UHGV virus genome: UHGV-0076293 | From: a virus | Reading direction: 5' to 3' (one strand) | Length of the DNA stretch: 64,000 nucleotides | Part shown: positions 6,268 to 39,020 of the stretch, piece by piece | Layout of the letters: each line of letters opens with the position of its first letter | How positions within the stretch are numbered: the first letter of the stretch is position 1 | Notes under the pieces: generated by a model | What the model was told of the DNA's origin: nothing | What the model saw: only the letters and a program-made list of their open reading frames with translations | The model's database searches: none | Program-made: the position numbers and the translations under genes

Positions 6268-6295
6268 GAGAGGGGCCTGCGCCCCTCTTTTTTTG
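6268..6295 (+). terminator. intrinsic terminator (aggggc-ctgc-gcccct + T8)
   Basis: GC stem-loop + T-run right after stop of 4166-6265. Confidence 0.65.
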
Positions 6296-6307
6296 TAAGA
6301 GGGGAGC

Positions 6308-11384: not shown

Positions 11385-12236
11385 ATGATTGACATTTATA
11401 CAGATTACGCCGCCGTTCTTACCGTCAATCGTTCGGAGGAACGTGCTGCACCGTTTCTGGATTTAGTCACGCTTTGCATGGACTACGGATACGACGTTGC
11501 GTTAAGTGATGTATACTGGCAACCGTCTTCTGACCCGGCAGACGAAACGGTTCGATTAGAAGGCATTATCGTTAAGTGTGCGGTAGCGTTAGGTAACCGT
11601 CTAGGGATAGCGTTAAATCCCCAGGAAGTTTACCATAAACCCAAAGAAACCGTACGTATTCTGGACGGTATTACTTCCAAGTTTGAAGAGTTTGAAGACA
11701 CCGATACGCTTTATGGTATTGTGATGTCGGGCGAGACGCCGGAATACATTCTGGAAAGTATCTGTCGTTACGTTTACGGTGATGACAATATTCATTTCGA
11801 AGATTTGGTTGTTCGGGTGTCTCCTCGTGTAATGACAGTGATGAGGAACTACCTGTCTTCTGTGACCGTAGACGAACAATTAGCGGCAGGTAACGACAGA
11901 CGTTTGTCACGTATCGCTGATTACCTTCGTTTATATCCTCAAAACCCATCAGCGTTCGTATTCCTTAACTTACCAGACCTGCCTGATTTGACCGTGGTTC
12001 AGCAGTCGCTGGTCTTCGATGTTGAAGACTACACGGAAGCCGAGCTGTTGGAAATGTATGCAGTGGGCTTATCGATTATCGATAACGAGGATTACGAAGA
12101 TGCGTATAGTGCGTTATCAGAGAACTTGGAGAAGCTCAACAACGAAGGGTTAAAACCTATTCCTATCTTGCAACCTGCTCTGGAAAGCTTGAAGGAGATT
12201 TATAAGGTAGCGGAGGAAGATAATGACGAGATTTGA
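11385..12236 (+). CDS. hypothetical protein
   Basis: ORF; first ATG at 11385 (ORF track begins at TTG 11349); acidic C-terminus. Confidence 0.45.
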   Translation: MIDIYTDYAAVLTVNRSEERAAPFLDLVTLCMDYGYDVALSDVYWQPSSDPADETVRLEGIIVKCAVALGNRLGIALNPQEVYHKPKETVRILDGITSKFEEFEDTDTLYGIVMSGETPEYILESICRYVYGDDNIHFEDLVVRVSPRVMTVMRNYLSSVTVDEQLAAGNDRRLSRIADYLRLYPQNPSAFVFLNLPDLPDLTVVQQSLVFDVEDYTEAELLEMYAVGLSIIDNEDYEDAYSALSENLEKLNNEGLKPIPILQPALESLKEIYKVAEEDNDEI

Positions 12237-13524
12237 GTTTCTGGTGGCGGCTTGTAAAGCTGAAGCCTGGCGTCGTTTAGTGTGGCGTATTGCAATATTC
12301 AACATGTCAGTGTTCCCGTCGAAACGTGAAGAACCTGAAGCGTTCGATATTACGTATATTGACGGAATGCCGCACTATTACGCGGTAGAAGATGGGAAAG
12401 GTGATTGGCAGCCCATTACTGATGGCGTGAAAGACCAAGAACTGTTTATTCCCGAAGAACAGTTCGAATTGAAAGTCGATGACTACCCAGGATTAGAAGG
12501 GCCGATTCCTACCACTGTGGGACGTTATATCTTTAACTGGATTGTTATCTGGTATGCGTTTGGTACTCGCTTACCGTATATGGGCGTTTCACAAAACCCA
12601 TTAGAGTATCGTAAAGAGATGCACCGTCGTTGTTTGGATCACGAGACCGATGAACCTGAGAACGAAGGTGCTATTCGTCCGAGCATGATAGAACGCTTTG
12701 TAAGCGGCTTACACGAACTTGCACCGTTAACCGCTGGTATTGCACCAACAGGTACACTTAGAAGCCTTACGGTGCATCCTGATGCGTATAAAATACGTGA
12801 TGCGTTGCTGTTAAAGCATAAGGACGAGTTAGACGACCCAGCAGTGATTGTTAAGATAGAAAAAGCACTGGACGAACTGGATAAACAGTGGTTGTCAGGT
12901 GACCAATCTATCGAGTTCTATAACTCGCCGAAATCACGAATGCGTCGACGTAAGTTGATGTTGATGTACGGGATTGAATCATCTTTCCAGGAAGGGGGTA
13001 ACTATACGTTAATTCCTAACGCACTGGTGGAAGTTGATAAGGCGGGAATGGATAATCTGGTCGCGAAGTTTAACTCTATTCGTGAAGGCTCGTTCTCGCG
13101 TGGTGCAGAAACCGCGAAAGGTGGGGAACAGGTACGTATCATCCAGATGATTTTCCAGAACCACCGAATCGTTGCAGGTGACTGTGGGACGAAACTCACG
13201 CACCCTGTGGTTATCACAAAAGACAACGTAAAACGTTACGTTGGGATGAACGCGATGGTTAATGGGAAGTTAACCTCCCTGACGGAAGAGTTTCTGAATA
13301 GTCAGCTAGGGAAAGTTGTGCGCCTACGCCGACCCATCTTATGTCAATACGGCCACATCGACTGCTGTACTGCGTGCTCCTCCGAAGCGAAAGGTGAAGA
13401 ACCTCGCGCTATCGCGGCGGATATTTCGTCAGCGTTCTCTAACGTTATGTCCGTGGCAATGGCCGCAATGCACGGTAAAGAAACCGTCGTTCAAGAATAC
13501 GATCCGTTGATCCATATCACCTAA
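12223..13524 (+). CDS. hypothetical protein (433 aa)
   Basis: ORF overlapping upstream gene end by 14 nt (translational coupling). Confidence 0.5.
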   Translation: MTRFEFLVAACKAEAWRRLVWRIAIFNMSVFPSKREEPEAFDITYIDGMPHYYAVEDGKGDWQPITDGVKDQELFIPEEQFELKVDDYPGLEGPIPTTVGRYIFNWIVIWYAFGTRLPYMGVSQNPLEYRKEMHRRCLDHETDEPENEGAIRPSMIERFVSGLHELAPLTAGIAPTGTLRSLTVHPDAYKIRDALLLKHKDELDDPAVIVKIEKALDELDKQWLSGDQSIEFYNSPKSRMRRRKLMLMYGIESSFQEGGNYTLIPNALVEVDKAGMDNLVAKFNSIREGSFSRGAETAKGGEQVRIIQMIFQNHRIVAGDCGTKLTHPVVITKDNVKRYVGMNAMVNGKLTSLTEEFLNSQLGKVVRLRRPILCQYGHIDCCTACSSEAKGEEPRAIAADISSAFSNVMSVAMAAMHGKETVVQEYDPLIHIT

Positions 13525-13536
13525 GGATTATTAGTA

Positions 13537-14046
13537 ATGGCAACCAAAGACATTTCTACCCAAGATGCTCGCCCTGCTGCTGTTAAGCGCTCCGCAGAAG
13601 CGGCAGTAACTTATAGCCAAGATGACTCTTATCAGGTAAACCTTATTGCTGCACAGTTAGACGAAGCAGGGAATACCATCGGTACCAACAAACCGAAAAA
13701 CACGCCGGAAGCAGACGACGCTTTCCGTAAACTGCATCAGTCTTTCCGTAGCCTGTTTGAACTGCGTGGTCAGGCGTTTATCGACGCTTTTAACGTTTTC
13801 GTTGCTGCTGCGATTAAACACAAGCGTAGCATCTTCTATTACCCGAATGTGAACTACCACCTGGATTGGTTCCACGATTCTGCTGAACGTGAAACTTACG
13901 TGGTGTTTATCAACATGCTGGTACGTTTTGCTAACTCTCAAGATAAAGCAAACTTCGCACAGCGTGACAACGTTAACCGTCTGCTGCAACGCGTAGCTGA
14001 CCCAGAGCTGCAACAGCTGCTGGCATACTGCTTCAACGCGGCTTAA
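13537..14046 (+). CDS. hypothetical, probably abundant protein (169 aa)
   Basis: ATG with AAGGA RBS; codon usage appears host-optimised by eye; followed by conserved terminator element. Confidence 0.55.
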   Translation: MATKDISTQDARPAAVKRSAEAAVTYSQDDSYQVNLIAAQLDEAGNTIGTNKPKNTPEADDAFRKLHQSFRSLFELRGQAFIDAFNVFVAAAIKHKRSIFYYPNVNYHLDWFHDSAERETYVVFINMLVRFANSQDKANFAQRDNVNRLLQRVADPELQQLLAYCFNAA

Positions 14047-14049
14047 TAA

Positions 14050-14098
14050 GCTTTACCCTACTCCTCTCGGGAGTAGGGTAGCTTTTATTTTTTCTTAG
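14050..14098 (+). repeat. conserved ~45-nt terminator element, copy 1 (ccctactcc-tctcg-ggagtaggg-tagcttttattttttcttag)
   Basis: Near-identical copy at 19417-19465, differing only in loop bases; both between convergent genes. Confidence 0.7.
14056..14094 (+). terminator. intrinsic terminator within repeat copy 1
   Basis: 9-bp stem, 5-nt loop, T-rich tract. Confidence 0.65.
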
Positions 14099-15876
14099 TG
14101 AGTGGTTTTGATGTATTCAAACGGATCGGTAACGGCTTCTCCCTGACGACGTAAGAATGCTTCTAACACAACGTTCTTATCTGGCAGTAAGAAGAAGTCC
14201 GTTGCGATTTCCATTGCATTAACACGCCCTGCGGTAAGGTTAATCCCTACACGACGTCGTACTTCTTCAGGAACACCATGAATGCTCAGCAACTCGATTA
14301 ACGTTGTTTCACGAGACTGGTTCATCATGTTCGTTGCAGAAGGATACGCCTGGGTTAAGTCCGCATCTGCGGTTTGCCCACGGAATGCAGTGTAGAAATC
14401 ATCAAACTCTTTAATGATTCCTCGCAGACCGTTTTCCGCGTTCATACACGCAGTTAACGTAACAATCCAACCGTCCGTACCGATAACTTCTTCATCGAAA
14501 TCATTACGCATTGCACTGCCTACACAACCGATAACCAACCCTTGTTCATAAAGGTAATAGGTGTAAGCAATACAAATACGTTTTGGTAACGAAGGGAAGA
14601 TATCGTACATCGAATAACCCGCCAGTACGGAAATTGCCGAAGACAAGTCGTTCGTTTTTTTATCCAACAACACAATCATCAGGTTATCGAAGATGTTATA
14701 AACGCAGTATTCGAGCGGGAACTCTTTCTGTGCTTTTAAGTGCCATTCCAGTTTCTCCTCGTAAGGCAGTTCTGGCAAGTCTAACTTGTTTAAGCCCAGT
14801 TCAGTTTCCAGAATAGCGTTAAGTTTGTAAGAAGGACGTTGGCCTTCGTGAACACGCAGTGAACGAAACAGACACATTGCATCCACACAGTAGAACGATG
14901 CGGTACAATAAAGTACGTGCCACTGTTGTGAAGGTGCTTTGGTCAGTGATTTCGATTCCGTTTTCTTCGATGCTTCGTCTTTCTTGAAGTAAACACGACG
15001 GTATTGCTTCGGTACATCAGGATGACAAAAGACGTCTTCCGGTGGAATCCCTGCGGCTTCTAGCGCTTCTAACATACGTGAAATATCGAACTCGTGGTTC
15101 CATGCAACTAATAAGTCAGGTAGCCGAGGGTGAATCTCTTCAAACATGCGTTGAATACAGCAGCCAGAGTTTAAGCATTCGTAAACGAAGATTTTATATC
15201 CGGCAATAACGTCTTTGATTTCAGTATTAGGATTACCTTCTTTGTCTTTGCCACGAAAAGCAATTTTAGAAAGTAACTCCTTCGCACGTTTAATTAGTCG
15301 CGCTTCGAAGTTCTCACGACCACAACGCGTAACGTAGTCTTTCGTTGCGAAGAAATGAATTTCGTCATCCAAAACAAAACTCATAATCCAAGGGTCTCGA
15401 GATTTGTCTTCTTCTCGAGTTTCCACGTCGTATACACAAATACGGTTAGGTGAAACAGCGTTAGGCCATTTCTTTACATACCTTTCTTTAATCCAGCTGG
15501 TGATAGGTAAGTCAGCCCAGTAAACGTACGGAGAGGTACAGACTTGACGTAATGAACGTTTTTTGTCAGGAAATCTTGCCCCTAGACCCATTTGAATGGT
15601 TTGTGACATCATCACATCCGTGGTCATGTATTCCTGACACTTACTGCGTTCTTCGTATTCTTTCTTTTCTTGATGGTTACGGTGTTGTGGTAAAGTAATG
15701 TAGATAGGCCGTTTCAGATTTTCACGCATGACGATACGCGGGATGAATCTGCCATCTTTAGTATGGACGACCTCCTTTATGAGCACGAAGTCGTTTTCTT
15801 TCTGCTGATCGGTTGCGTACGAAACAAATTTGCACTCTTTGGCAATAACGTCTTCCGGTGCGTAATAGTTATTCAT
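14095..15876 (-). CDS. DnaQ-like 3'-5' exonuclease-domain protein, possibly the exonuclease part of a split family-B DNA polymerase
   Basis: Exo I-like VYDVETRE (DxE), Exo II-like AWNHEFDISRML, Exo III-like YCVYNIFD; start ambiguous (ATG at 15876 or 15975, TTG at 15990; the latter two overlap the divergent gene). Confidence 0.5.
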   Translation of the reverse strand: MNNYYAPEDVIAKECKFVSYATDQQKENDFVLIKEVVHTKDGRFIPRIVMRENLKRPIYITLPQHRNHQEKKEYEERSKCQEYMTTDVMMSQTIQMGLGARFPDKKRSLRQVCTSPYVYWADLPITSWIKERYVKKWPNAVSPNRICVYDVETREEDKSRDPWIMSFVLDDEIHFFATKDYVTRCGRENFEARLIKRAKELLSKIAFRGKDKEGNPNTEIKDVIAGYKIFVYECLNSGCCIQRMFEEIHPRLPDLLVAWNHEFDISRMLEALEAAGIPPEDVFCHPDVPKQYRRVYFKKDEASKKTESKSLTKAPSQQWHVLYCTASFYCVDAMCLFRSLRVHEGQRPSYKLNAILETELGLNKLDLPELPYEEKLEWHLKAQKEFPLEYCVYNIFDNLMIVLLDKKTNDLSSAISVLAGYSMYDIFPSLPKRICIAYTYYLYEQGLVIGCVGSAMRNDFDEEVIGTDGWIVTLTACMNAENGLRGIIKEFDDFYTAFRGQTADADLTQAYPSATNMMNQSRETTLIELLSIHGVPEEVRRRVGINLTAGRVNAMEIATDFFLLPDKNVVLEAFLRRQGEAVTDPFEYIKTTH

Positions 15877-15947
15877 GTTTTCACTCTCAAATCTAGCGGC
15901 TGCTATACTGATTTGTGGGTAATGTAATTTCTCAAAAGGAATCACAA

Positions 15948-17282
15948 ATGGGATATTGGCAAAATCACATTGCATCAGTTGCGGATGCAAAGGTTGTAGC
16001 CGCAGAATCGATTAAATTCCAAGATAAAAAGAAACTCGCAGAACTGGCAGACATTATTGCTAAATTTCGTGCAGCCGGAGACTTTAGTCCGGCCGGTTAC
16101 GAGAGTTCTGGTGTTTCTGATTGGGTATTTAAAACCAACGGTATTAGCATTAACTTTAAGAACGGTAGCGAACTCGGATTATTCGACGTTGCCTTCGCGG
16201 GTGTAGAACCGCCTAAACTGGACGCGAATAGTCCGGTAATTGCGTCAATGGCGCGTGCACTGTACGCAGGTAATAAAGACCTGGACATGTACAGTAAGTT
16301 TATTAAAGAAAACGAACTGAACAGCAGCATTGACGATTCCAGTGCGAAAATCAGCGGTGACTTGAGCAAAGTCAGTTCTCCGCTTTACCTGACTCCGGTG
16401 CTGTTGGGGAAACTGGAGCTCACCGATTTGGAGGTTGCTTCGGTAATCCTTCATGAAGTCGGTCACATTTATTATTACTTCCGTACGCTGATGCGTACCG
16501 TGGTAACGGATTTACTGGCAGACGCTGCGGCTAACCGAATCATGGAAAGCGAAGACCCAGCTGTTCGTTTACGTGTGGTTAAAGACGTTGAACGAATGCT
16601 GAACACGAAAGTGAATCAGCCAGAGACCATCTGCACTGAGTACAAGAAAGAAAACGTCTACATGCACCTGGTAACAGATTTGCTGTTAGACCGTCCGTTC
16701 ATTAGCGGTAGTCAAGGCTTTGCAAACCGTACCTGGGAACGTGCTGCTGACGACTTCGCTGCCCGCTTTGGTGCTGCCCCGTACTTAGCTTCTGCACTGT
16801 ACAAAATGGAAACCAGCCCGTTCTATCTACTGCGTAACTCGTCGTATATGAACATGGGTGTCCATTTGACGATTGAGTTGTTCCGTGTGACTGCGCTGAT
16901 TGCCCAAGCTGCCATTCCGATTCTTCCGGTTATCTCTGTTACGTTTGGGATGATTCTGAACGACCCAGATAACACCATCTACGATCCGCCGCAGGAACGT
17001 TTTGAAGCGATGCGCCGTACGCTGGTAGAAGAACTGAATACCATCAAAGACAAAAACACGAAAGCGGCTAACGAGCAACGTAAACGTATTCTGGATGGTA
17101 TCGCGGTAATTGATCGAATTCTACTCACGGTTAAAGACAAAGATAACCTGTATCAGTTTATCTGGAAGACGCTGACACCGAAAGGGCGTCGTGACCGTGC
17201 TGCGGTGGATTATCAGCGCGCTATCGGGAAGTATATGTCGAATGACCTCCGTATCGCATCTGCCATGTTTAACGTCGATTAA
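15948..17282 (+). CDS. putative zinc metallopeptidase (HExxH)
   Basis: VILHEVGHIYYYF zincin-like motif; ATG with AAGGAA RBS. Confidence 0.45.
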   Translation: MGYWQNHIASVADAKVVAAESIKFQDKKKLAELADIIAKFRAAGDFSPAGYESSGVSDWVFKTNGISINFKNGSELGLFDVAFAGVEPPKLDANSPVIASMARALYAGNKDLDMYSKFIKENELNSSIDDSSAKISGDLSKVSSPLYLTPVLLGKLELTDLEVASVILHEVGHIYYYFRTLMRTVVTDLLADAAANRIMESEDPAVRLRVVKDVERMLNTKVNQPETICTEYKKENVYMHLVTDLLLDRPFISGSQGFANRTWERAADDFAARFGAAPYLASALYKMETSPFYLLRNSSYMNMGVHLTIELFRVTALIAQAAIPILPVISVTFGMILNDPDNTIYDPPQERFEAMRRTLVEELNTIKDKNTKAANEQRKRILDGIAVIDRILLTVKDKDNLYQFIWKTLTPKGRRDRAAVDYQRAIGKYMSNDLRIASAMFNVD

Positions 17283-17296
17283 GTAAAGGTAAAACC

Positions 17297-17740
17297 ATGA
17301 CGCATAAAGTTTCTCTGAATTCGTTAGTTCTTGATTTTAAACGCGCTAACGAAGGTAAAGGTGTCCAGGCGCAGCGTGCCCTGACTGGCCTGGTTGCATT
17401 CTCGCTGGCGTATAATGCCGATATGCCAGACAACGGACCGTATGGTTCTAACGAAGTTTCACAAATCAAACTTCGTCCACTGATGAAAAACGTGGTATCC
17501 GACGTTAACGAACTTTACTGCGTTGACTTAGGCACTGTCGAAGACCTGACCGTTGCGTTGTTCTGTAATCGTTACGACAGCGCCTGGGGTGGACGTCGTG
17601 CAATTGAAAACTTCTCCGTACGTGAGATTTTCAACCAAGCCTTAGGTGATGATGTTTGGAACACTATCAACTTGTGGCTGGAACGTTTTGTCGACGCAGT
17701 GAAATTCTACATGGATGAAACGCGAGGCAAATTATCATGA
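17297..17740 (+). CDS. hypothetical protein (147 aa)
   Basis: ORF with AAAGG RBS. Confidence 0.45.
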   Translation: MTHKVSLNSLVLDFKRANEGKGVQAQRALTGLVAFSLAYNADMPDNGPYGSNEVSQIKLRPLMKNVVSDVNELYCVDLGTVEDLTVALFCNRYDSAWGGRRAIENFSVREIFNQALGDDVWNTINLWLERFVDAVKFYMDETRGKLS

Positions 17741-19410
17741 GTATGGAAATGACAGCAAACATTGCACAACCGCAATGGAAACTCGACGAACTTCCAACTA
17801 TTATCGAACAGCGAATGGAAGAACGTATCGATTCTGTCAGCCAGCTCAACCTCTACATGCAGCGTAACGAAGCCGATTTGATTTACGGTTCACGTATTAT
17901 CGCGCAGATTGAAGCGATTCTTCGTGAAGTTCGTAAAGCGGGTCTAAACCGCGACGTTGCCGTAGCGACGGAATCTTTGCGTCCGGGCACTATCCCGAAA
18001 GCGGTGCAGAGCATCCTGACGTCGAACTACAGCCGTACTCATCAGAAAGAAACCGTCATCGCGCTAGAGTCTTACGCGAACTTCGGTAAGATCAGTCTTA
18101 TCGTGATGGTAATGATGGGGATTATGAAAATCCTGAACTGGATTATCAGTAACGCTGTACCGTTTGCAGGGGCTGCTGACGTAGATGGGGACGAGTATCG
18201 TGACAAACTCTTAGAGAAGATCGATGCGGTTCCTTTCATTGAACGTCTGAAAATCACCGCGCTGAAAGAAGCGTATATGGACGCGTCGAAGGGACTGAAA
18301 GACGGTGAACTGAATAACCTGGAATTGGCTATTCTGATGGCCGATGAAGTCCTGACGAACATGAACGCAGAAGACCTGTTGAATAAGCTTAGCGCAGCTC
18401 TGGGACGTTCTCCGTTCGTAGGGATGTTTAAAGACTACACGAAACGTCGTCAGAATGAACAGCAGGTTATCCACGATATCCTCGATACGTTGCTGCGTAC
18501 TAATATCGGTTGTGCGGTATTCAGTCAGCAGGTTTGTGACGAAGTGTACAAAGCTTTACCGGCGGACGTTCGTAAAGCAGGTATCAACATTCCTAACGAA
18601 GCGTTCTACCGCCAGATGGGAAGAAACCTGGAGAGCTTCTCCGCAGGGTTAAAACGTTTAGATCAGTCGTTAAAAGACCTCAAGTCGTATTACTTCTCGG
18701 GTGACCGCACGCTGGGTACGGATCAAGAAAACCGCATTAGTGCAACGGGGATCGTTCAAGCACTGGCGTTGCTTAACGGCGAAATTGAAATAGCGTTAAC
18801 CGATTTTGCATCGTGTCGTGGTGCACCGCTACCAACGATAATGGTGAAATCCGATCGTGACTTAATCGGTTATTCGTCTCGAGAGTTCGGTAATGGATTC
18901 ATCATCGCTTCTGCAGGGGTTAACTCGTATTTCGGTTCTGCGGCTAACATGGAAATTATGCGCCAGGAACTGAGCTTTACCAGCGGTGATTCTCGTGAAT
19001 TGTTAGCGTGTCTGATTACGTTAGCTCGCAGCGGGATTACTAAAGGGCCAGCCGATACGTCTATTGACCGCTTCAAAGTGGTGGAGAAACAGATCGAGAA
19101 AGTGGTTAGCCAGTTGAAAGACATGTCACGCCAATCTCGTTCTGGTATGAACAGCAAAGCTTGGCAGATGATGGAACAAGCGTTCCGTGACGAAGCACAA
19201 CGTTCAGATCTGTACGAATTGGGCTTTGGTCGTGAATTGACGACGATGACCGTGATGGACCCAGATCGAAACGTGTGGGATTCTGTTGCGTTTACGACGG
19301 AACTGATTAAGTCCTGGACAACTGCCGCCGGTGCTCTGGCGACGATTCTGAAACGGGCTAAGAACAACCCGCTGGTAAAAGGTGGGAAGTTTAATAAACT
19401 CGTCGATTAA
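17737..19410 (+). CDS. hypothetical protein (557 aa)
   Basis: ORF; start overlaps upstream stop. Confidence 0.5.
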   Translation: MSMEMTANIAQPQWKLDELPTIIEQRMEERIDSVSQLNLYMQRNEADLIYGSRIIAQIEAILREVRKAGLNRDVAVATESLRPGTIPKAVQSILTSNYSRTHQKETVIALESYANFGKISLIVMVMMGIMKILNWIISNAVPFAGAADVDGDEYRDKLLEKIDAVPFIERLKITALKEAYMDASKGLKDGELNNLELAILMADEVLTNMNAEDLLNKLSAALGRSPFVGMFKDYTKRRQNEQQVIHDILDTLLRTNIGCAVFSQQVCDEVYKALPADVRKAGINIPNEAFYRQMGRNLESFSAGLKRLDQSLKDLKSYYFSGDRTLGTDQENRISATGIVQALALLNGEIEIALTDFASCRGAPLPTIMVKSDRDLIGYSSREFGNGFIIASAGVNSYFGSAANMEIMRQELSFTSGDSRELLACLITLARSGITKGPADTSIDRFKVVEKQIEKVVSQLKDMSRQSRSGMNSKAWQMMEQAFRDEAQRSDLYELGFGRELTTMTVMDPDRNVWDSVAFTTELIKSWTTAAGALATILKRAKNNPLVKGGKFNKLVD

Positions 19411-19416
19411 AAAAAG

Positions 19417-19465
19417 AAGTACCCTACTCCTTATCGGGAGTAGGGTAGCTTTTATTTTTTCTTAG
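19417..19465 (+). repeat. conserved ~45-nt terminator element, copy 2
   Basis: ccctactcc-ttatcg-ggagtaggg-tagcttttattttttcttag; stop codon of the convergent minus gene lies inside the repeat, as in copy 1. Confidence 0.7.
19422..19461 (+). terminator. intrinsic terminator within repeat copy 2
   Basis: Hairpin + T-tract. Confidence 0.65.
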
Positions 19466-22416
19466 TCTGCGCTGGTATCGTGACGGTTGTAAGCGATAAC
19501 AATATCGTCTTTCAGACCGATGTCACCACTGGCTTCAATATCCAGTTTCTTACCAATCGTTGCACGTGCAGCTTCGGATACTACAGTAAACAGACGCATG
19601 TCTTTGTCTGGCCCCATCGCATCCAACTCAACGCCGATAATCGACGTGTCAAGCGTTTCGCTGAGCTTATTACCAATCTCTGTTGCCGAGATAGTAAGAT
19701 GTGAACCCAAGTAGTCGTTGATAACTTGAGACGTTTTCTTACGAATCTGCGTTAACAGATCGCTGTTGCTACGGTTAGCCGCAGTCAGGTAATAACGAAC
19801 GGTAAACTGGTTTTCAGCCGGTATCGGCGTAACCACCCCGTCTTCGGTACGTGCATCGATATAACCCATCGTGGTGATAGGAACGAAATACCCTTCCGTA
19901 CGTTCTAACAACATCGGTTTTAACGTCGGTAGAACCACGGTCACGTAGTTAACGATATTCTCAATAACTGCGTTCAGATAGGATTTCGCAGACGCTGTGG
20001 TAGCGAATTTATAACGTGCGTCGAAGACCGCCATTTCACTACGGAACTTAATAGAACGAGATTTCGCAATCTTAGGATTACCGTACTCGTCTTTTACTAA
20101 GTCCCCTTCGTGGTGTAGGATAATCTGCTGGCCGGTTTCGTCAAGCTTAGGATCGCCTTTACGGTGTTCGTAAGTGATTTGTAGCGGTGGTGTACGGCCT
20201 GCGTCGTACGTGTAAACCGGAACCCCATTCTCATCACGTTTCACCACGTCAATTTCCCACGTCGCTAACACGTCTTTGTCGTAATACTCGTAGTTGATGC
20301 TGTCAGTAACAGCACGAGCTTTACGCCAATAGTACGTCATTGCTTTACCCAGTTCGATTTTGAATATCTCGTGAGTAATACCGATAGCGTCACGAGAAGG
20401 CGGTGTGATTAACGCATCCATCTCTACACGTTCGTAGTTCCCAGGGTAATAACCTGTACAACCGTAGAACAGGTTAAAATCTGTCAGCAGTGCGACAGGG
20501 GTTTCCGTTGGGTTACTTCCGTTAATACGGGTGTTGGTCAGTACCAGTTCGTCGTTACGGTCAACGTCCAGGTTAGTTTCCAGCAAGAACTCCCAAACAC
20601 GTTCGCTACCCTGCTTACCGACTAACGTACCGTTAATGTACGCCAAGGTGTTATCGGAATTACGAGGACGGAAAGACAGCTGTGCAAAGACTTGGTCATC
20701 AGCCAGTGCCTGGTAAGGTGCTTCTGACTTCGTAACCGTACGCAGCACATAACCCGCTTCCGTTTTCTCGATAGTGTAGTCAGCAGTAACGACGCTGAGC
20801 TCCGTCGAGACGTTGGTCGCAATAAAGCGTTTAGAGTTTAATACCGGTTTATCCAACTGGTAAATACGTACGTCAATCGCTTTGTTGTTAATGTCAACAA
20901 CGTAATGGAACGGTGTAAACAAATAACGGTTAGTGTTTGCTGCGTTAATCAGGTCTTCCTTACGCATGGTCTTCGCTAACACCGTCATTTCGGCATCTAC
21001 AGTTAGACTGGTATCCGTAAAGCGATAGAGTGTGTCAGGAAGAATGGTCAGGCGATTACCGTTGACTTTCACTGTCGGGAGATTAACCAGCTCGTTCCAG
21101 GAGAAATAGAACGGGGCAGTAATCGTCCCTATCGGTGAACTGACGTTAGCAATCGTCGATTCCAACATCGGTGCTGTCATGAAGTACGTACGACTGGTCA
21201 CGTAGTCGTTAGGTTTAGACAACGTGAGACCGTAATCAGAAACCGTAGCCTCAAGCTGCTTTTCTGTCACGGGCAGTTTACGTGCGCCCACGGCGTTGTT
21301 AACAACGCGAGTACGTAAATCACTGAACGAAAGCTGACTACGGCCACCCGATAGCATCTTCCCAGCTTTTGCTGCAAGCTGTTTAATAGAGAACGCTTTA
21401 ATCGGGTTGATATAGTTCGCGTCGTACTCTTCGTTTAAATCGCGTAGGCTGAAACTATACTCGTCGGACGGATACGCAGAGATGTCCAGCTCCAACGGCC
21501 CTAAGGTCGTATAGACGTCCATCCTGATAGTCCCACTGACGAGATTCTTCGCCATGTAAATAGACGGAATCGTACAACGGATATTGCCGTTACCCACCTG
21601 AATCAATGCCGTTGGTGTGTTCGGGTCGTAAACATCGCGACTGTGAGTGTGTTGAATCTCTACCCACTTGTTGCTGCCCGTTGCCTTCATCCAAACACGA
21701 ACATAGAAGAACTTGTTAGTGTAACTACGCGTCATGACAAACGTGTTGCTACCTTCGACGGTGTTACTTTCTTCTTTTACCGCATACTGCATCACTGGAA
21801 TATGGATAGCCAGCAGCTGTGAAGATGTTGTGTTAGCGGACGTTAGTTCCCATTCCAGTGCGTTCGTGGAAACTGGTGAAATCGGTGATTGTGTTTCAGT
21901 AATCCACAGTACCTGGAAAGCCGGGTTCTCGTTCGTTCCGTACGGGAGTACACGGATTTCAATCGGGTACTGGATAGCAAACGTGTAACCAGAAACCGTA
22001 AAGACCGTGTCACGTGGGATAACGACTTTACGAACCCCCGCGATTTGCAACGGATACGCTTTCGAGATTAAGCTGTCAACGTCAATTAACAGTAACAGTT
22101 CTGTAGTAGCAGGCTGCGCAAAGACGTCAACGTAATCCACGTCTGACATGTGTCGGAACAGGTCATCGTAAGTCTGTGCCATTGACGGGAACGTTTTAGG
22201 AATAGATTCCTGGAGTCCCATCAATGTAGCGTGCCCCATCATTGTTCCCATTTCTGCCAAATAAACGACAGGGTCGGTAGGGTCACGGAGATAAATCTGG
22301 CCATCGGCATCTTCAACATCTTGAAGCTGGTTTAGCAGCATTGTCTGCATCGCCGCAGGGTTGTGTGCGAACAGCAGAAGTTTCTTTGCCAAAGTATCGT
22401 AAGTTGTTGAACTCAT
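19462..22416 (-). CDS. large hypothetical protein (984 aa), likely virion/structural
   Basis: Long ORF; coupled to upstream minus gene (ATGA overlap). Confidence 0.55.
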   Translation of the reverse strand: MSSTTYDTLAKKLLLFAHNPAAMQTMLLNQLQDVEDADGQIYLRDPTDPVVYLAEMGTMMGHATLMGLQESIPKTFPSMAQTYDDLFRHMSDVDYVDVFAQPATTELLLLIDVDSLISKAYPLQIAGVRKVVIPRDTVFTVSGYTFAIQYPIEIRVLPYGTNENPAFQVLWITETQSPISPVSTNALEWELTSANTTSSQLLAIHIPVMQYAVKEESNTVEGSNTFVMTRSYTNKFFYVRVWMKATGSNKWVEIQHTHSRDVYDPNTPTALIQVGNGNIRCTIPSIYMAKNLVSGTIRMDVYTTLGPLELDISAYPSDEYSFSLRDLNEEYDANYINPIKAFSIKQLAAKAGKMLSGGRSQLSFSDLRTRVVNNAVGARKLPVTEKQLEATVSDYGLTLSKPNDYVTSRTYFMTAPMLESTIANVSSPIGTITAPFYFSWNELVNLPTVKVNGNRLTILPDTLYRFTDTSLTVDAEMTVLAKTMRKEDLINAANTNRYLFTPFHYVVDINNKAIDVRIYQLDKPVLNSKRFIATNVSTELSVVTADYTIEKTEAGYVLRTVTKSEAPYQALADDQVFAQLSFRPRNSDNTLAYINGTLVGKQGSERVWEFLLETNLDVDRNDELVLTNTRINGSNPTETPVALLTDFNLFYGCTGYYPGNYERVEMDALITPPSRDAIGITHEIFKIELGKAMTYYWRKARAVTDSINYEYYDKDVLATWEIDVVKRDENGVPVYTYDAGRTPPLQITYEHRKGDPKLDETGQQIILHHEGDLVKDEYGNPKIAKSRSIKFRSEMAVFDARYKFATTASAKSYLNAVIENIVNYVTVVLPTLKPMLLERTEGYFVPITTMGYIDARTEDGVVTPIPAENQFTVRYYLTAANRSNSDLLTQIRKKTSQVINDYLGSHLTISATEIGNKLSETLDTSIIGVELDAMGPDKDMRLFTVVSEAARATIGKKLDIEASGDIGLKDDIVIAYNRHDTSAD

Positions 22417-26420: not shown

Positions 26421-26436
26421 AAAGGAAATAAACGAA

Positions 26437-27708
26437 ATGGCAAATTTCGCAAAAACTCGCGCCGCTCGTGAATCGATGGAAGCGGCCGATGAAGTAATCG
26501 ACGGTATCAGCAACGTTGAACCGGCAGAAGAGAACCTGGACGTCCAGCTTGCAGACGTAGCCTCTATCGACGGTCAGCTCGAACAGCTGGAAACCGACGG
26601 TGAAACCCTGGCTGCCGATACCGAGCGTACTGAAGACGCTATCGAGCAGGCGGAAGAAGCCGTTGCTAACGGTGAAGAAATGCCGGAAGAAGCGGTTGCC
26701 CTGCACGAAGTGGCACAGGAATCCATCGCACGTCGTTGGAACCTGGAACGTACCAAACTGGCTCGTGAATCCTATCGCCGTGGCCGTGGCATGACTGCTG
26801 CTGCGCAGGAAGGCTGGAAAGAAACCCTGAAAGGTCTTTACGAGCGTTTCATTCAGTTCTGTAAAGAAGTAATTGCGAAAATCAAAGACCTGAAGCTGAA
26901 ATATTTCAACGTCGGTAAGACCGCACAGAAACGTGCGAAGAAATATCAGGAAATGATCCGCAAGCTGGGCAAACAAGATAAAGACAACATTTCTGGCGGC
27001 TTTATCACCAAATTGTCCATCGAAGGTAAATTCGATGCTGCTGGCTCTATTGCCATCGCTAAAGAAGTGACCGCAGGTAAAGCGAAAGGTGCTATCAGTG
27101 CACTGGAAAAACAAGCTGGTGAAGCTGTGACTGCTGTTACCAAAGGTGACGATGACGCATTCAAAGCGATGCGTGGCGATCAGCCGGTTGAACTGTTTGG
27201 TAAAGCAGCGTCTAAACTGCATTCTCTGCCGAACTTTGAAAACGGCGACGCGTCTAAACTGCTGGCACTGCCGGGCAACGCTTACGTTCAGGCTGGTACT
27301 AAAGAACTGGCTGGCGGCCACAAGTTCACCGCAATTGCATTCATGAGCACCGGTGACGCTTCTGACGATAAAGAAGTGGCTACTCCGTCTGTTTCAGAAA
27401 TGGCTGGCGCGGCATCTGCTCTGGAAGCGATCGGTAAAGGCTTCGAAGCCGTACTGAAAGATTTCCGTGCTTACGATTCTGAAATCGTGAAACTGCAACA
27501 GGCTGCTGAAAAAGCGTCCAACGCGCTGAACAACGAAAAAGACGAAAGTAAGTGGGAAGGACTGCGTAATGCACGTCAGGCCGCTGATCAGTCTGTGAAG
27601 AACTACCAGACCCTGAACCGTGCCGTTAGCTACGTAGCTAACACCGTTATTAGCGGTCTGAACGGTTACCTGGGTGCTGGTATCGGCGCGTACAAAAAGT
27701 CTAAATAA
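26437..27708 (+). CDS. abundant hypothetical protein, paralog 1 (acidic N-terminal region; possibly a processed virion/inner-body-type protein)
   Basis: 423 aa; first 47 nt identical to paralog 2; C-terminus GLNGYLGAGIGAYKKSK; codon usage appears host-optimised by eye. Confidence 0.6.
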   Translation: MANFAKTRAARESMEAADEVIDGISNVEPAEENLDVQLADVASIDGQLEQLETDGETLAADTERTEDAIEQAEEAVANGEEMPEEAVALHEVAQESIARRWNLERTKLARESYRRGRGMTAAAQEGWKETLKGLYERFIQFCKEVIAKIKDLKLKYFNVGKTAQKRAKKYQEMIRKLGKQDKDNISGGFITKLSIEGKFDAAGSIAIAKEVTAGKAKGAISALEKQAGEAVTAVTKGDDDAFKAMRGDQPVELFGKAASKLHSLPNFENGDASKLLALPGNAYVQAGTKELAGGHKFTAIAFMSTGDASDDKEVATPSVSEMAGAASALEAIGKGFEAVLKDFRAYDSEIVKLQQAAEKASNALNNEKDESKWEGLRNARQAADQSVKNYQTLNRAVSYVANTVISGLNGYLGAGIGAYKKSK

Positions 27709-27746
27709 TTAGACTTACGCTCGTACAGTTCTTGAAATAAATCAAT

Positions 27747-27768: not shown

Positions 27769-27784
27769 AGAGGAAAAGCTTAAA

Positions 27785-29047
27785 ATGGCAAATTTCGCAA
27801 AAACTCGCGCCGCTCGTGAATCGATGGAAGCTACTGCTACTGTAGTTCCAGACGGCATCGAACTGCCAGCAGAATCTGTTGAAGGTACTCTGGCCGATAT
27901 CGAACATGATACCAAACCGATCGAAGCCCTGGACGCTGACGCTGAACTGCTGGCCGAAGACGGTGACGAAACTGATGCTCAACTGGATGTCCTGGATGAA
28001 GCTCAGGCCGCTGCTGACGGTGAAGGTGCAGGTGAAGACGGCGAAGACCCGATGGATGCCGAAGAAGATATGCCGGACGACGCAGCGACTGCGCTGGACG
28101 TTGCTCAGGAATCTATCCGTTCTCGTTGGAACTTCGAACACCGTTCTTCCGTTGCACACGAATCCTACGGTTCTCGTAACCGTCGCCAGGTTGCTCGTGA
28201 ATCCCTGTGGGAAGACATTAAAGCATTCCTGAAACGTATCTGGGAATGGCTGAAAGAACAAGGCCGTAAGATCAAAGATCGTTGGCTGAAATTCTCCAAC
28301 CAGGGTAAATCCATTCAGGCTCGTTCTAAGAAATACGACGAAGCTATTCGTAAACTGGGCAAACAGAAGAAAGATGAAATCTCTGGTGGCTTCATCAAGT
28401 CTCTGTCTGTCGACGGTAAATTCGTTGGTGACGATCTGCCGCGCCTGAAGAATATCCTGAACCACGTCTCCACCTACTACAGTGGTAACGTTCAGAGCTT
28501 CCTGAACAACGGTACGGATATGGTTGGTAACGTCGTTAAAGGCGATGGCGCTAAAGTTGAGAAACTGAAAGCAGATTTCGCTGCTCTGGCCAAAGAAGAC
28601 GTTAGCAAGTTCAAACTTGGTAACATGGCACTGAAGATGGAATACGACGAAGAAGGCGGATTTAGCTCCAGCTATGTGGAAGCTGAAAACCGTGCTGAAA
28701 CCAACGTGAAAACTCCGTCTGTTAGCGATCTGGCTAAGACCAATGCCTTCTTCAACGAAGTGGGTAAACAGATCGAGAAGAACGTTCTGGAATATCGTAA
28801 GACTGAACAGGCTCGCGAGAAATTCAGCCAGCAGATTGAGAAGCTGCTGAAAGAAATCGACAGCGTGAAGATCGACGAAAAACCGGAACTGACCGAATCT
28901 GTACGTACCGCACGTCGTTACATCAACAGCATTAACCAGGCAGTGTCTCTGGGCGAGAAAGTTATTTCCTCTACTCAGAAACATCTGGCTGGCGGTCTGA
29001 ACGGCTATATCTCCGCAGGTATCGCTGCTTACGAAAAATCTAAATAA
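27785..29047 (+). CDS. abundant hypothetical protein, paralog 2
   Basis: 420 aa; N-terminus MANFAKTRAARESMEA and C-terminus GLNGYISAGIAAYEKSK shared with paralog 1. Confidence 0.6.
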   Translation: MANFAKTRAARESMEATATVVPDGIELPAESVEGTLADIEHDTKPIEALDADAELLAEDGDETDAQLDVLDEAQAAADGEGAGEDGEDPMDAEEDMPDDAATALDVAQESIRSRWNFEHRSSVAHESYGSRNRRQVARESLWEDIKAFLKRIWEWLKEQGRKIKDRWLKFSNQGKSIQARSKKYDEAIRKLGKQKKDEISGGFIKSLSVDGKFVGDDLPRLKNILNHVSTYYSGNVQSFLNNGTDMVGNVVKGDGAKVEKLKADFAALAKEDVSKFKLGNMALKMEYDEEGGFSSSYVEAENRAETNVKTPSVSDLAKTNAFFNEVGKQIEKNVLEYRKTEQAREKFSQQIEKLLKEIDSVKIDEKPELTESVRTARRYINSINQAVSLGEKVISSTQKHLAGGLNGYISAGIAAYEKSK

Positions 29048-29065
29048 TCTCTGATTGTTTAGTAA

Positions 29066-29112
29066 GAGAACCACCCTGTAATGGGGTGGTTCTCCCTTTT
29101 CTTTTTTTTTTC
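29066..29112 (+). terminator. strong intrinsic terminator (gagaaccaccc-loop-gggtggttctc + T-run)
   Basis: 11-bp stem + >12 T. Confidence 0.75.
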
Positions 29113-29125
29113 GATTAAAAATAAA

Positions 29126-29166
29126 CTCAGATATATATTACCTTAGTGAGATTACGCTGTAATCTT
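29126..29166 (+). promoter_or_regulatory. conserved promoter-like element TCAGATATATATTACCTTAGTGAG (copy 1) followed by inverted repeat GATTAC-gctg-GTAATC
   Basis: Near-identical element at 37380-37404; contains TATATTAC; ~50 nt upstream of ATG 29202. Confidence 0.45.
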
Positions 29167-29201: not shown

Positions 29202-29843
29202 ATGACACGTTACAATTTAGCTGACTTCTGCGATTGTGCCTTTTCTGTTGAAGGTGACAAACTTGTAATGGCTGCGCCAAACGCAAGAGTCTTATCGTTG
29301 TATCAAGCCGAAGTTATTGCAATTTCGATTTGGTTAGCAAGGGCTATAGACGGCGGCTGTAAGGACCTTGATAAAGAAGTGTTGAAAGTCGGTCGTCGTG
29401 AATTTGTGTATAAAGCAGAAATCCAGAACCGTTTACCACAGACCTTTTTAAGCAGCTTGCTTAAAGATGTCAACACCCCAGTTGTCAGCCGAACATTTGA
29501 CGGGGTGAAATATTACTCTTTTGAAGATTCGCACGTTGCTATCTGTGAAGGCGAGAATAAGTTTTTTACGACCGTTATCTACTTTCGTATTGTTGAACCT
29601 ACGAAAGAAGAACTGGTTTGCAACACTGCGAACGATGTGGCCGGGATGCGTATGGACGATATCACCGGTTCACTATCTGGATTAAATGACATACCGCGTA
29701 TTGTGGAGCGAGTCTTGGAAGGAGACGATTACTTTAAGCTGCTTCCGCTGGTAGCAAGCGAAGAAACAGAACAGGAAAGCGCTTTCATTCAGGTTAACCT
29801 TACCGCTGCGCAGGCGGTAGATCGTTTCTTCGAAGCTTTATAA
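29202..29843 (+). CDS. hypothetical protein (213 aa)
   Basis: ORF with TAGGAGAA RBS. Confidence 0.55.
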   Translation: MTRYNLADFCDCAFSVEGDKLVMAAPNARVLSLYQAEVIAISIWLARAIDGGCKDLDKEVLKVGRREFVYKAEIQNRLPQTFLSSLLKDVNTPVVSRTFDGVKYYSFEDSHVAICEGENKFFTTVIYFRIVEPTKEELVCNTANDVAGMRMDDITGSLSGLNDIPRIVERVLEGDDYFKLLPLVASEETEQESAFIQVNLTAAQAVDRFFEAL

Positions 29844-29847
29844 TCAG

Positions 29848-29877
29848 AAAGCCCTCTACGGAGGGCTTTATTTTTTC
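29848..29877 (+). terminator. intrinsic terminator (aaagccctc-tacg-gagggcttt + T-run)
   Basis: Hairpin + T6. Confidence 0.65.
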
Positions 29878-37258: not shown

Positions 37259-37379
37259 TACTCGTAAATGCGTCTTAGACGCTGTTTTACACCTTAAGAC
37301 GATTAATGGTGTTTAAAAAATAAAAGGTCGTCAGAATGCGATACAGCGCGTTTTAGAGGGTGTTTTAATTAAAAATATT

Positions 37380-37415
37380 TTCAGATATATATTACTTAGG
37401 TGAGAGAATTACGTA
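37380..37415 (+). promoter_or_regulatory. conserved promoter-like element TCAGATATATATTACTTAGGTGAG (copy 2) followed by palindrome ATTACGTAAT
   Basis: Matches 29126-29150 at 23/24 positions; sits in the longest intergenic gap (37216-37452), ~50 nt before ATG 37453. Confidence 0.45.
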
Positions 37416-38466: not shown

Positions 38467-38472
38467 AAGCAA

Positions 38473-38516
38473 CCCCTAATCCCGAAAAGGATTAGGGGTA
38501 CACTTTATTTATTTTC
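38473..38516 (+). terminator. intrinsic terminator (cccctaatcc-cgaaaa-ggattagggg + T-rich)
   Basis: 10-bp stem + tttatttatttt. Confidence 0.65.
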
Positions 38517-38538
38517 GCTCTTAAAAGGAAATTGTGTC

Positions 38539-38694: not shown

Positions 38695-38702
38695 TAACCG
38701 TT

Positions 38703-38727
38703 AGGGGTGTGACAGCACCCCTTTTTA
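38703..38727 (+). terminator. intrinsic terminator (aggggtg-tgacag-cacccct + T5)
   Basis: Hairpin + T-run. Confidence 0.55.
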
Positions 38728-39012: not shown

Positions 39013-39020
39013 TAAAAACA

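What the first reader, a model, noticed from the sequence alone, without database searches (positions are those of the whole stretch)
14050..19465. Near-identical 45-nt terminator cassette duplicated at two convergent-gene junctions
ccctactcc-(tctcg/ttatcg)-ggagtaggg-tagcttttattttttcttag occurs at 14050-14098 and 19417-19465, differing only in loop bases. In both copies the stop codon of the convergent minus-strand gene (TAA, read from ...cTTAg) lies inside the repeat. Exact conservation of stem and flanks suggests a sequence-specific function beyond generic termination, or recent duplication.
Basis: seen in the sequence. Interest (0 to 1): 0.4.

Follow-up and report, generated by a model that had tools for sequence, protein, structure and literature searches.

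The report
Repeated terminator hairpin of a jumbo phage
The two near-identical 46-nt cassettes are ordinary hairpin transcription terminators between convergent genes of a giant E. coli phage, and they belong to a small multi-copy family of look-alike terminators that this group of phages keeps uniform by copying between sites.

Summary
TACCCTACTCC-loop-GGAGTAGGGTAGCTTTTATTTTTTCTTAGT lies at 14054-14099 and 19420-19466. All 41 non-loop bases are identical, only the loops differ, and the TAA of each convergent minus-strand gene lies inside the repeat.

The window is an SPN3US/phiKZ-related jumbo phage, 97% identical to a 221,873-bp E. coli "plasmid", NZ_CP173450.1.

Both cassettes are intrinsic terminators:
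- An 11-bp stem is followed by a U-tract.
- Fourteen related phages have a perfect hairpin at both orthologous junctions. Eight of 11 pairs show compensatory changes, and none of the inner nine pairs is broken.

They are not a private duplication:
- The same stem occurs 5 times in that relative's complete genome.
- It occurs 87 times in IMG/VR, with 50 copies in 25 contigs of at least 200 kb. A permuted control stem had none in such contigs.

These phages draw terminator stems from a narrow vocabulary: a G-free 5' arm, then TTTAT. This resembles the conserved terminator motif mapped in phiKZ and 201phi2-1.

The shared 3' flank is best explained by short-tract gene conversion from junction 2 to junction 1 (inferred). 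Loops flip orientation between 97%-identical genomes, as template switching would produce.

Verdict: an ordinary function and a new member of a known kind. A sequence-specific role is neither shown nor excluded.

The parts
14054..14080 (.). Junction 1 hairpin: arms 14054-14064 (TACCCTACTCC) and 14070-14080 (GGAGTAGGGTA), loop 14065-14069 (TCTCG)
   Evidence: The 66-nt stretch 14040-14105 that holds the hairpin folds at -24.3 (+ strand RNA) and -22.7 kcal/mol (- strand RNA); z = -3.5 and -5.6.
14081..14099 (+). Shared 3' flank GCTTTTATTTTTTCTTAGT. It is the U-tract for + strand transcripts and contains the TAA (14095-14097) of the minus-strand DNA polymerase gene.
19420..19447 (.). Junction 2 hairpin: arms 19420-19430 and 19437-19447, loop 19431-19436 (TTATCG)
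   Evidence: The 68-nt stretch 19405-19472 that holds the hairpin folds at -27.1 (+ strand RNA) and -23.1 kcal/mol (- strand RNA).
19448..19466 (+). Shared 3' flank GCTTTTATTTTTTCTTAGT. It is the U-tract for + strand transcripts and contains the TAA (19462-19464) of the minus-strand virion-protein gene.
19408..19419 (-). A-rich tract TAAAAAAAGAAG. Read on the minus strand (CUUCUUUUUUUA) it is the U-tract that makes junction 2 bidirectional.
   Evidence: the scan lists the site on both strands.
14040..14053 (-). Left flank of junction 1, GGCTTAATAAGCTT. On the minus strand it gives only a weak U-tract (AAGCUUAUUAAGCC).
   Evidence: listed on the + strand only. Relatives outside the clade have CTTTTATTT here.
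13537..14046 (+). Upstream + gene of junction 1 (169 aa, phrog_7825, SPN3US gp43 homologue), last gene of a run that includes an RNA polymerase beta-subunit gene (12223-13524)
14095..15990 (-). Convergent gene of junction 1: DNA polymerase (phrog_3011, E = 1e-251)
17737..19410 (+). Upstream + gene of junction 2 (557 aa, phrog_8131, SPN3US gp47 homologue)
19462..22416 (-). Convergent gene of junction 2 (984 aa, phrog_3248; SPN3US gp48, annotated as a virion structural protein)

Best explanation
Both cassettes are factor-independent (intrinsic) transcription terminators placed between convergent genes of a phiKZ/SPN3US-type jumbo phage.

How they work (inferred from anatomy and from mapped terminators in related phages):
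- Transcripts coming from the + strand genes fold an 11-bp perfectly paired hairpin, followed at once by GCUUUUAUUUUUUC. That releases the polymerase.
- The stem is a perfect palindrome, so minus-strand transcripts make the same hairpin.
- At junction 2 the minus-strand hairpin is followed by CUUCUUUUUUUA, so this terminator is truly bidirectional.
- At junction 1 the minus-strand tail is weak. There the hairpin probably terminates poorly in that direction, or only protects the 3' end.

Why they are identical:
- They are two of about five members of a paralogous terminator family with the stem CCCTACTCC/GGAGTAGGG.
- The family sits inside a genome-wide set of roughly 45-50 terminators. These are built from a narrow vocabulary: a G-free 5' arm made of CCC/TAC/CTC blocks, a purine 3' arm, and a TTTAT tail.
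- The family is kept uniform by short-tract gene conversion. The 3' flank of junction 2, including the stop codon, was probably copied onto junction 1 in the ancestor of the window's clade.
- Stems stay perfect, and loops flip, through template switching within the palindrome.

Shown here: the structure, the conservation, the copy numbers and the pattern of differences. Inferred: termination itself, the direction of conversion and the template-switch mechanism.
For: Structure and position:
- The 66-68-nt stretches that hold the hairpins fold at -23 to -27 kcal/mol on either strand, with no shuffle folding as well.
- They are the two best terminator-like sites in 20 kb.
- They lie 8-10 nt after the + gene stop codons, and their tails overlap the minus-gene stop codons.

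Conservation:
- Fourteen SPN3US-like phages have a perfect 8-13-bp hairpin at both orthologous junctions, with at least 8 different stem sequences (one junction-2 hairpin each was not found in phiEaH2 and L128).
- In the alignment of 23 of these hairpins, 8 of 11 pairs have changes on both sides. The inner nine pairs show no broken pair and no G-U intermediate.

Family:
- The 97%-identical complete genome NZ_CP173450.1 has 5 copies of the stem among 48 terminator-like hairpins.
- Other multi-copy stems there are TACCTACCTCC x4 and three stems with 2 copies each.
- Twenty stem pairs share an 8-mer, against 1.8 expected. SPN3US has 10 such pairs against 1.6 expected.

Distribution:
- IMG/VR holds 87 copies in 58 contigs, and 50 of them are in 25 contigs of at least 200 kb.
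- A same-composition control stem gives 30 loci, none in a contig of at least 200 kb.
- GenBank phage hits to the cassette are all jumbo phages.

Vocabulary:
- The 5' arm is G-free in 22 of 48 and 27 of 43 phage terminators, against 1 of 9 in 200 kb of E. coli K-12.
- TTTAT occurs in 37 of 65 tails, against 17.1 +/- 3.4 expected.

Precedent:
- phiKZ has 61 mapped intrinsic terminators sharing CCYCCCC-loop-GGGRRGG followed by TTAT. It also has bidirectional terminators between convergent genes (PMC10914365).
- 201phi2-1 has the same kind of motif in 59 terminators, and eight terminators were validated in vivo (PMC11512511).

Conversion:
- Junctions 1 and 2 share lineage-specific flanks: TA..TAGC in the window's clade and TTA..TAAC in the roughly 80%-identical clade.
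- The tail TTTTTTCTTAR and the C-terminus ..HDT(T/S)AD* are shared by junction 2 of both clades.
- Junction 1 has that tail only in the window's clade. There the polymerase ends ..IKTTH*, against ..IKAAK*/R* in the other clade and ..GF* elsewhere.

Loop flips:
- Junction 1 reads TCTCG or CGAGA, and junction 2 reads TTTTCG or CGAAAA, among genomes 96-98% identical. All four combinations are present.
- Template switching is known to produce loop inversions and one-step compensatory changes (PMC8794818).
Against: - No transcript 3' ends are available for this phage or for any SPN3US-like phage, so termination is inferred.
- Junction 1 lacks a good U-tract on the minus strand.
- The published phiKZ consensus does not match anywhere in the window, even with 3 mismatches. 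The resemblance is in architecture, not in sequence.
- The direction of conversion rests on two clades plus outgroups. Ancestral identity with later divergence of junction 1 in the other clade is not excluded.
- Part of the recurrence of 9-mers is expected from the extreme base composition of the arms: the null gives about 1.6-1.8 shared pairs.
Confidence: 0.8

Rival explanations
1. The stem sequence itself is read by a phage factor. Candidates are the phage's own multisubunit RNA polymerases, a termination or antitermination protein, a 3'-end-binding or processing protein, or an mRNA-handling step of the phage nucleus. On this reading the vocabulary is kept by selection on sequence rather than by copying. 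This could hold in addition to the terminator role.
For: - G-free 5' arms occur in 46-63% of phage terminators, against 1 of 9 in the E. coli sample.
- TTTAT is enriched in the tails.
- The exact 9-bp stem recurs at non-orthologous junctions in phages only about 65-73% identical, where neutral intergenic DNA should be randomised.
- Three stem columns are invariant across 23 orthologues.
Against: - Orthologous stems differ in sequence while pairing is kept.
- In the 97% relative only 5 of 48 terminators carry this stem, and many have unrelated or purine-rich 5' arms, for example GTCTAAGCCC and TAAGGGAGTCT.
- 201phi2-1 terminators worked in uninfected host cells with host polymerase (PMC11512511).
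- No candidate binding protein was identified here.
Confidence: 0.2
2. A recent, functionally neutral duplication of a 46-nt segment in this one genome.
For: There are 41 of 41 identical non-loop bases and a 33-nt exact repeat.
Against: - Both junctions carry a hairpin in all 14 relatives examined.
- Both junctions carry the same stem in genomes about 80% identical to the window.
- The only differences fall in the loop (2 changes in 6 nt against 0 in 41). That is not what neutral decay would give.
Confidence: 0.03
3. A small mobile palindromic element (REP- or MITE-like) that inserts into intergenic DNA and only looks like a terminator.
For: It is multi-copy, palindromic and intergenic. The same stem appears at junctions where relatives have a different stem, for example window 43832 and 39291 against L001/L076 and L002/L013.
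Against: - There are only about 5 copies per 222 kb.
- No empty sites were found: every orthologous junction has some hairpin, so stems are replaced rather than inserted.
- There are no flanking target duplications, and the unit is only a stem plus a T-tract.
- The cassette matched only one E. coli record, itself a phage genome.
Confidence: 0.05
4. The palindromes act mainly at the DNA level, for example as cruciform or recombination hot spots that delimit exchangeable gene modules, like the promoter-stem-loop elements proposed for T4-type phages. Termination would be secondary.
For: - Loop flips and the absence of G-U intermediates point to DNA-level palindrome dynamics.
- Breaks in the alignment of the window to NZ_CP173450.1 lie next to hairpins: 29205-29861 is flanked by the hairpins at 29066 and 29848, and 56815 lies just after the hairpin at 56749.
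Against: - T- and A-tracts flank the stems in the way terminators require, and the TTTAT tail is strand-specific to the transcribed direction.
- The hairpins sit at gene ends rather than at module borders in general.
- The breakpoint association was not tested statistically.
Confidence: 0.05

Closest known systems
Conserved intrinsic-terminator motif of Pseudomonas jumbo phage phiKZ (BCCYCCCCHWWDGGGRRGGBYTTATKYYGT; 61 mapped terminators; PMC10914365) and motif A of phage 201phi2-1 (n = 59; PMC11512511)
   Same: - It is a jumbo phage with its own split RNA polymerases.
- Many terminators in one genome share a pyrimidine, G-free 5' arm, a purine 3' arm, a short loop and a T-run interrupted by A (TTAT) right after the stem.
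- Some are bidirectional between convergent genes.
   Different: - The stem is longer (9-11 bp) and is interrupted by TA (CCCTACTCC rather than CCYCCCC).
- The published consensus finds no match in the window with up to 3 mismatches.
- Here the terminators split into several exact-copy sub-families rather than following one consensus.
- No 3'-end mapping exists for this clade.
Bidirectional intrinsic terminators between convergent bacterial genes (own knowledge: Ju, Li and Liu 2019; conservation of overlapping terminators in Bacillus cereus, PMC5381666)
   Same: One palindromic hairpin is flanked by an A-tract and a T-tract and is shared by two convergent genes. Such sites are more conserved than unidirectional ones.
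   Different: Junction 1 has lost a good U-tract on one side. The stop codon of one gene lies inside the T-tract at all orthologous sites, 7-17 nt from the stem.
Template-switch mutations in hairpins (PMC8794818)
   Same: Stems remain perfect, there are double changes without intermediates, and loop sequences are replaced by their reverse complement.
   Different: That work concerned rRNA hairpins over long time scales. Here the flips are seen between genomes 96-98% identical, with all four combinations at two sites 5.4 kb apart.
REP/BIME extragenic palindromes of E. coli
   Same: They are repeated intergenic palindromes, often at the 3' ends of convergent genes.
   Different: REPs have hundreds of copies, imperfect stems, no U-tract and their own transposase-like mobiliser. 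This family has about 5 copies, perfect stems and a U-tract.
CUUCGG-type stable hairpins in T4 intercistronic regions (own knowledge: Tuerk et al. 1988)
   Same: TTCG and its complement CGAA are the commonest loops of the family in related genomes: 14 and 4 of 43 in SPN3US.
   Different: The two window copies have 5- and 6-nt loops (TCTCG, TTATCG), not the tetraloop.

Membership tests
Intrinsic (factor-independent) terminator | Stable G+C-containing stem-loop in the transcript | tested here: met
   The stem is 11 bp and perfect, with 6 G-C pairs. The 66-68-nt stretches that hold it fold at -23 to -27 kcal/mol, with 0 of 200 shuffles folding as well.
Intrinsic (factor-independent) terminator | U-rich tract immediately 3' of the stem | tested here: met
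   The + strand tail is GCUUUUAUUUUUUC at both copies, and the minus-strand tail at junction 2 is CUUCUUUUUUUA. The exception is the minus strand at junction 1, AAGCUUAUUAAG, which is weak and is not listed by the scan.
Intrinsic (factor-independent) terminator | Lies at the end of a transcription unit, just past a stop codon | tested here: met
   The + genes end at 14046 and 19410, 8-10 nt before the stems. The minus genes stop 15 nt from the stems.
Intrinsic (factor-independent) terminator | Pairing, rather than sequence, is conserved in orthologues | tested here: met
   In 23 orthologous hairpins, 8 of 11 pairs are compensatory and none of the inner 9 is broken.
Intrinsic (factor-independent) terminator | Transcript 3' ends map a few nt into the U-tract | not testable with these tools
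   No RNA data exist for this phage. The analogous phiKZ and 201phi2-1 sites are mapped (PMC10914365, PMC11512511).
phiKZ-type conserved terminator motif | Pyrimidine (G-free) 5' arm and purine 3' arm | tested here: met
   The arms are CCCTACTCC and GGAGTAGGG. The 5' arm is G-free in 22 of 48 and 27 of 43 terminators of related genomes, against 1 of 9 in E. coli.
phiKZ-type conserved terminator motif | TTAT element directly after the stem | tested here: met
   CTTTTAT occupies positions +2 to +8 at both copies. TTTAT occurs in 37 of 65 tails against 17.1 expected.
phiKZ-type conserved terminator motif | Match to the published consensus BCCYCCCCHWWDGGGRRGGBYTTATKYYGT | tested here: not met
   There are 0 matches in the window with up to 3 mismatches. 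The cassette is therefore an analogue in a sister clade, not a sequence member.
REP/MITE-like mobile palindrome | Presence/absence polymorphism with empty sites and target duplications; high copy number | tested here: not met
   Every orthologous junction found carries a hairpin. There are about 5 copies per genome and no flanking direct repeats.
Any curated RNA family (Rfam 15) | Match to a covariance model | tested here: not met
   The only hit is a chance-level one elsewhere, at 18556-18597 (E = 0.56).

The most novel reading that the evidence does not exclude
The narrow stem vocabulary shared from Pseudomonas phiKZ to enterobacterial SPN3US-like phages (G-free 5' arm, CTCC-loop-GGAG tops, TTTAT tail) exists because the hairpin is read sequence-specifically. 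The exact-copy sub-families would then be the visible trace of that constraint plus gene conversion.
Probability: 0.15. Interest if true: 0.55.

Novelty: new member of a known kind. Interest (0 to 1): 0.3.

Why it matters
The finding gives a defined, testable set of termination signals for SPN3US-like jumbo phages. Those phages transcribe with their own unusual polymerases, and no terminators have been mapped for them.

It shows that these signals evolve as small gene-converted families with fast loop inversion. That matters for three reasons:
- annotation, because stop codons are buried in terminator tails;
- phage engineering, because identical 46-nt repeats are recombination substrates;
- the open question of whether phiKZ-type polymerases need special terminators.

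As a biological surprise it is modest.

Tried and rejected
- Rfam scan of 13500-20000: nothing relevant.
- Pfam on the six neighbouring proteins: no hits. PHROGs gave the names used here.
- The published phiKZ consensus searched in the window: no match.
- The search for related loci with a single protein reached only close relatives. An alignment query reached 13 loci.
- The first literature search (SPN3US + terminators) returned nothing specific.
- A second family stem, CCCTCTTACC, was scanned in IMG/VR: only 5 loci, all jumbo contigs, so it is rarer than CCCTACTCC.
- No GenBank phage carries the cassette at more than 90% identity.
- Considered and rejected: a neutral recent duplication, a REP/MITE-like mobile element, and assembly artefact as the cause of loop flips. 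The arms are only 11-12 nt, too short to mislead assemblers, and the flips recur in four independent assemblies.
Full report
**Observation.** Reading the sequence shows TACCCTACTCC-TCTCG-GGAGTAGGGTA-GCTTTTATTTTTTCTTAGT at 14054-14099. It shows TACCCTACTCC-TTATCG-GGAGTAGGGTA-GCTTTTATTTTTTCTTAGT at 19420-19466. The 41 non-loop bases are identical. The stem pattern occurs exactly twice in the window and never in 100 shuffles, and the 29-nt right half behaves the same way. The repeat finder lists a 33-nt exact repeat. The minus-strand ORFs 14095..15990 and 19462..22416 end with TAA inside the repeat, and the + strand genes end at 14046 and 19410.

**What the window is.** A 7.5-kb stretch around the repeats matches SPN3US, Asesino, phiEaH2 and other 240-kb Salmonella and Erwinia jumbo phages at about 73% identity. 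Gene order is the same as in SPN3US gp41-gp50, including a split RNA polymerase beta-subunit gene.

- Junction 1 lies between a gp43-like gene and a DNA polymerase gene.
- Junction 2 lies between a gp47-like gene and the gp48 virion-protein gene.
- A 221,873-bp circular "plasmid" of E. coli strain 98232, NZ_CP173450.1, is 97% identical to 61.7 kb of the window. It gave me the complete genome of a close relative.

**Terminator anatomy.** The 66-68-nt stretches that hold the hairpins fold at -24.3 and -27.1 kcal/mol on the + strand and at -22.7 and -23.1 kcal/mol on the minus strand. No shuffle folds as well. They are the top-ranked terminator-like sites in 20 kb. Junction 2 is listed on both strands and junction 1 on the + strand only, because its left flank (AAGCUUAUUAAG when read on the minus strand) is a poor U-tract. 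Other hairpins with T-tracts in the window have the same build, typically 8-11-bp perfect stems, but different stems.

**Conservation.** I collected the orthologous region from 13 IMG/VR loci plus Asesino. Every junction found has a perfect 8-13-bp hairpin, and there are at least eight different stem sequences:

- TACCCTACTCC, TACCCACTCC, CTACCTACTCC, CTACCCTCTCC
- CCTCTCTACC, ACCTCACTACCC, CCCTACTACTC, CCCACCTCC and others

In an alignment of 23 of them, 8 of 11 pairs show changes on both sides. The inner nine pairs are never broken and never pass through G-U. In all these phages the stop codon of the minus-strand gene lies 7-17 nt from the stem, inside the T-tract. This is the behaviour of a structure under selection, on both strands.

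**Further copies.** The stem CCCTACTCC-N3-8-GGAGTAGGG occurs in 81 IMG/VR loci.

- These hold 87 copies in 58 contigs, and 50 copies lie in 25 contigs of at least 200 kb.
- The three genomes closest to the window have 5, 6 and 6 copies, nearly all with T-rich tails.
- A permuted stem of the same composition gave 30 loci, one per contig, none in a contig of at least 200 kb.
- In GenBank phages the 55-nt cassette hits only jumbo phages: SPN3US-like Salmonella, Erwinia, Escherichia and Proteus phages, and Ralstonia RSF1. None exceeds 90% identity.
- In 5,426 E. coli genomes it hits only the phage-like "plasmid", at four places.

**Genome-wide picture.** NZ_CP173450.1 has 48 terminator-like perfect hairpins.

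- Five carry CCCTACTCC: junctions 1 and 2, plus sites at 195482, 214304 and 214920. Three of the five are at convergent gene pairs.
- Four carry (T)ACCTACCTCC, and three further stems occur twice.
- Stem pairs sharing an 8-mer number 20, against 1.8 expected from composition-preserving shuffles. In SPN3US the figures are 10 against 1.6.
- The 5' arm is G-free in 22 of 48 terminators (NZ_CP173450.1) and 27 of 43 (SPN3US), and C-free in only 6 and 1. In 200 kb of E. coli K-12 only 1 of 9 comparable hairpins is G-free.
- TTTAT occurs in 37 of 65 and 25 of 51 T-rich tails, against 17.1 and 14.5 expected.

The window's pair is therefore one sub-family within a phage-specific terminator vocabulary.

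**Comparison with the literature.**
- ONT-cappable-seq of phiKZ mapped 133 termination regions. [quoted passage not shown] Six bidirectional terminators lie between convergent genes (PMC10914365).
- 201phi2-1 has a similar motif in 59 terminators, and eight terminators were validated in vivo in uninfected cells (PMC11512511).

The window's cassette has the same architecture: a G-free 5' arm, a purine 3' arm and TTAT after the stem. It does not match that consensus. I therefore file it as the counterpart in a sister clade, not as a sequence member.

**Why the two copies are identical.** The window, 078609, 095954 and NZ_CP173450.1 form a clade at 96-98% identity. Contigs 113438 and 3300029126_000001 form a second clade at about 80% identity.

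- Both junctions have the same stem in both clades, so the stem identity is old.
- The flanks co-vary by clade: TA-stem-TAGC in the first and TTA-stem-TAAC in the second.
- The tail TTTTTTCTTAR and the protein end ..HDT(T/S)AD* are shared by junction 2 of both clades.
- Junction 1 has that tail only in the window's clade. There the polymerase ends ..IKTTH*, against ..IKAAK*/R* in the other clade and ..GF* in Asesino-like phages and SPN3US.

The simplest reading is a conversion tract that starts in the already identical stem and ends two bases past the stop codon, copied from junction 2 to junction 1. This is an inference from few lineages.

Terminator stems are also replaced between lineages at other junctions. 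At window 43832 (GTCTAAGCCC) and 39291 (AGGGGGTG), relatives carry CCCTACTCC.

**Loop flips.** With identical flanks, junction 1 reads TCTCG in the window and 095954 but CGAGA in 078609 and NZ_CP173450.1. Junction 2 reads TTATCG or TTTTCG in the window and 078609 but CGAAAA in 095954 and NZ_CP173450.1. All four combinations occur among four genomes. Other orthologous pairs do the same, with TCCG against CGGA and TTTGCG against CGCAAA. Together with the absence of G-U intermediates, this fits template switching within palindromes. That mechanism is documented to give loop inversions and one-step compensatory changes (PMC8794818).

**Verdict.** The finding is real, and its function is ordinary: two intrinsic terminators, one clearly bidirectional. 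They belong to a multi-copy, gene-converted family typical of phiKZ/SPN3US-type jumbo phages. A sequence-specific reader of the stem is not needed to explain the data, but it is not excluded, given the phage-specific vocabulary. Interest is modest at 0.3, and I class the finding as a new member of a known kind.

Noticed in passing
whole window; NZ_CP173450.1 64574-127859: A 221,873-bp circular 'plasmid' (p98232-contig_4) of a urinary E. coli isolate from Egypt is 97% identical to 61.7 kb of the window. It encodes phage tail, polymerase and protease genes. It is therefore a jumbo-phage genome deposited as a plasmid (carrier state or contamination), and it points to E. coli as the host.
   Followed up: partly
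window 29109-29151 and 37363-37405: A 43-nt repeat contains CAGATATATATTAC and lies just downstream of terminator hairpins. A 39-42-nt core is about 95% identical in SPN3US and phiEaH2, although the surrounding DNA is only about 70% identical. It is probably a phage promoter. From memory, it resembles the AT-rich TATATTAC early-promoter element reported for phiKZ.
   Followed up: partly
window 14065-14069 and 19431-19436; L124/L125 4151-4155 and 9516-9521: Loop sequences are exact reverse complements between genomes 96-98% identical, and all four orientation combinations of the two junctions occur among four genomes. Palindrome loops therefore invert very fast, or the genomes recombine between the two sites.
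   Followed up: partly
window 6269-6304: Two overlapping, mutually exclusive 8-bp hairpins (AGAGGGGC/GCCCCTCT and CCCCTCTT/AAGAGGGG) lie between the genes ending at 6265 and starting at 6308. The arrangement looks like a terminator/anti-terminator pair.
   Followed up: no
window 26435-26483 and 27783-27831; also 27653-27709 and 28992-29048: A 49-nt exact repeat sits at the starts, and a 57-nt repeat of 77% identity at the ends, of two tandem paralogous genes (26437..27708 and 27785..29047). The exact 5' repeat suggests gene conversion here too.
   Followed up: no
window 29205-29861, 37677-39264 and 56815-57494: These are the stretches where the megablast alignment to the 97% relative breaks. 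The first holds a 213-aa gene where the relative has a 58-aa gene, and it is bounded by the hairpins at 29066 and 29848. Accessory-gene swaps may use terminators as borders.
   Followed up: no
L028 7311-7334 and 7927-7948 (also L020, L044): Two CCCTACTCC hairpins about 615 bp apart bracket a single 182-aa gene in three related genomes. One is a bidirectional terminator and the other lies between tandem genes just before a ribosome-binding site.
   Followed up: partly
SPN3US (JN641803.1) 137590 and 186744: Two paralogous terminators share the stem TACCCACTCCC, and their loops are reverse complements of each other (CTTAC and GTAAG). Family members can therefore be copied in either orientation.
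   Followed up: no
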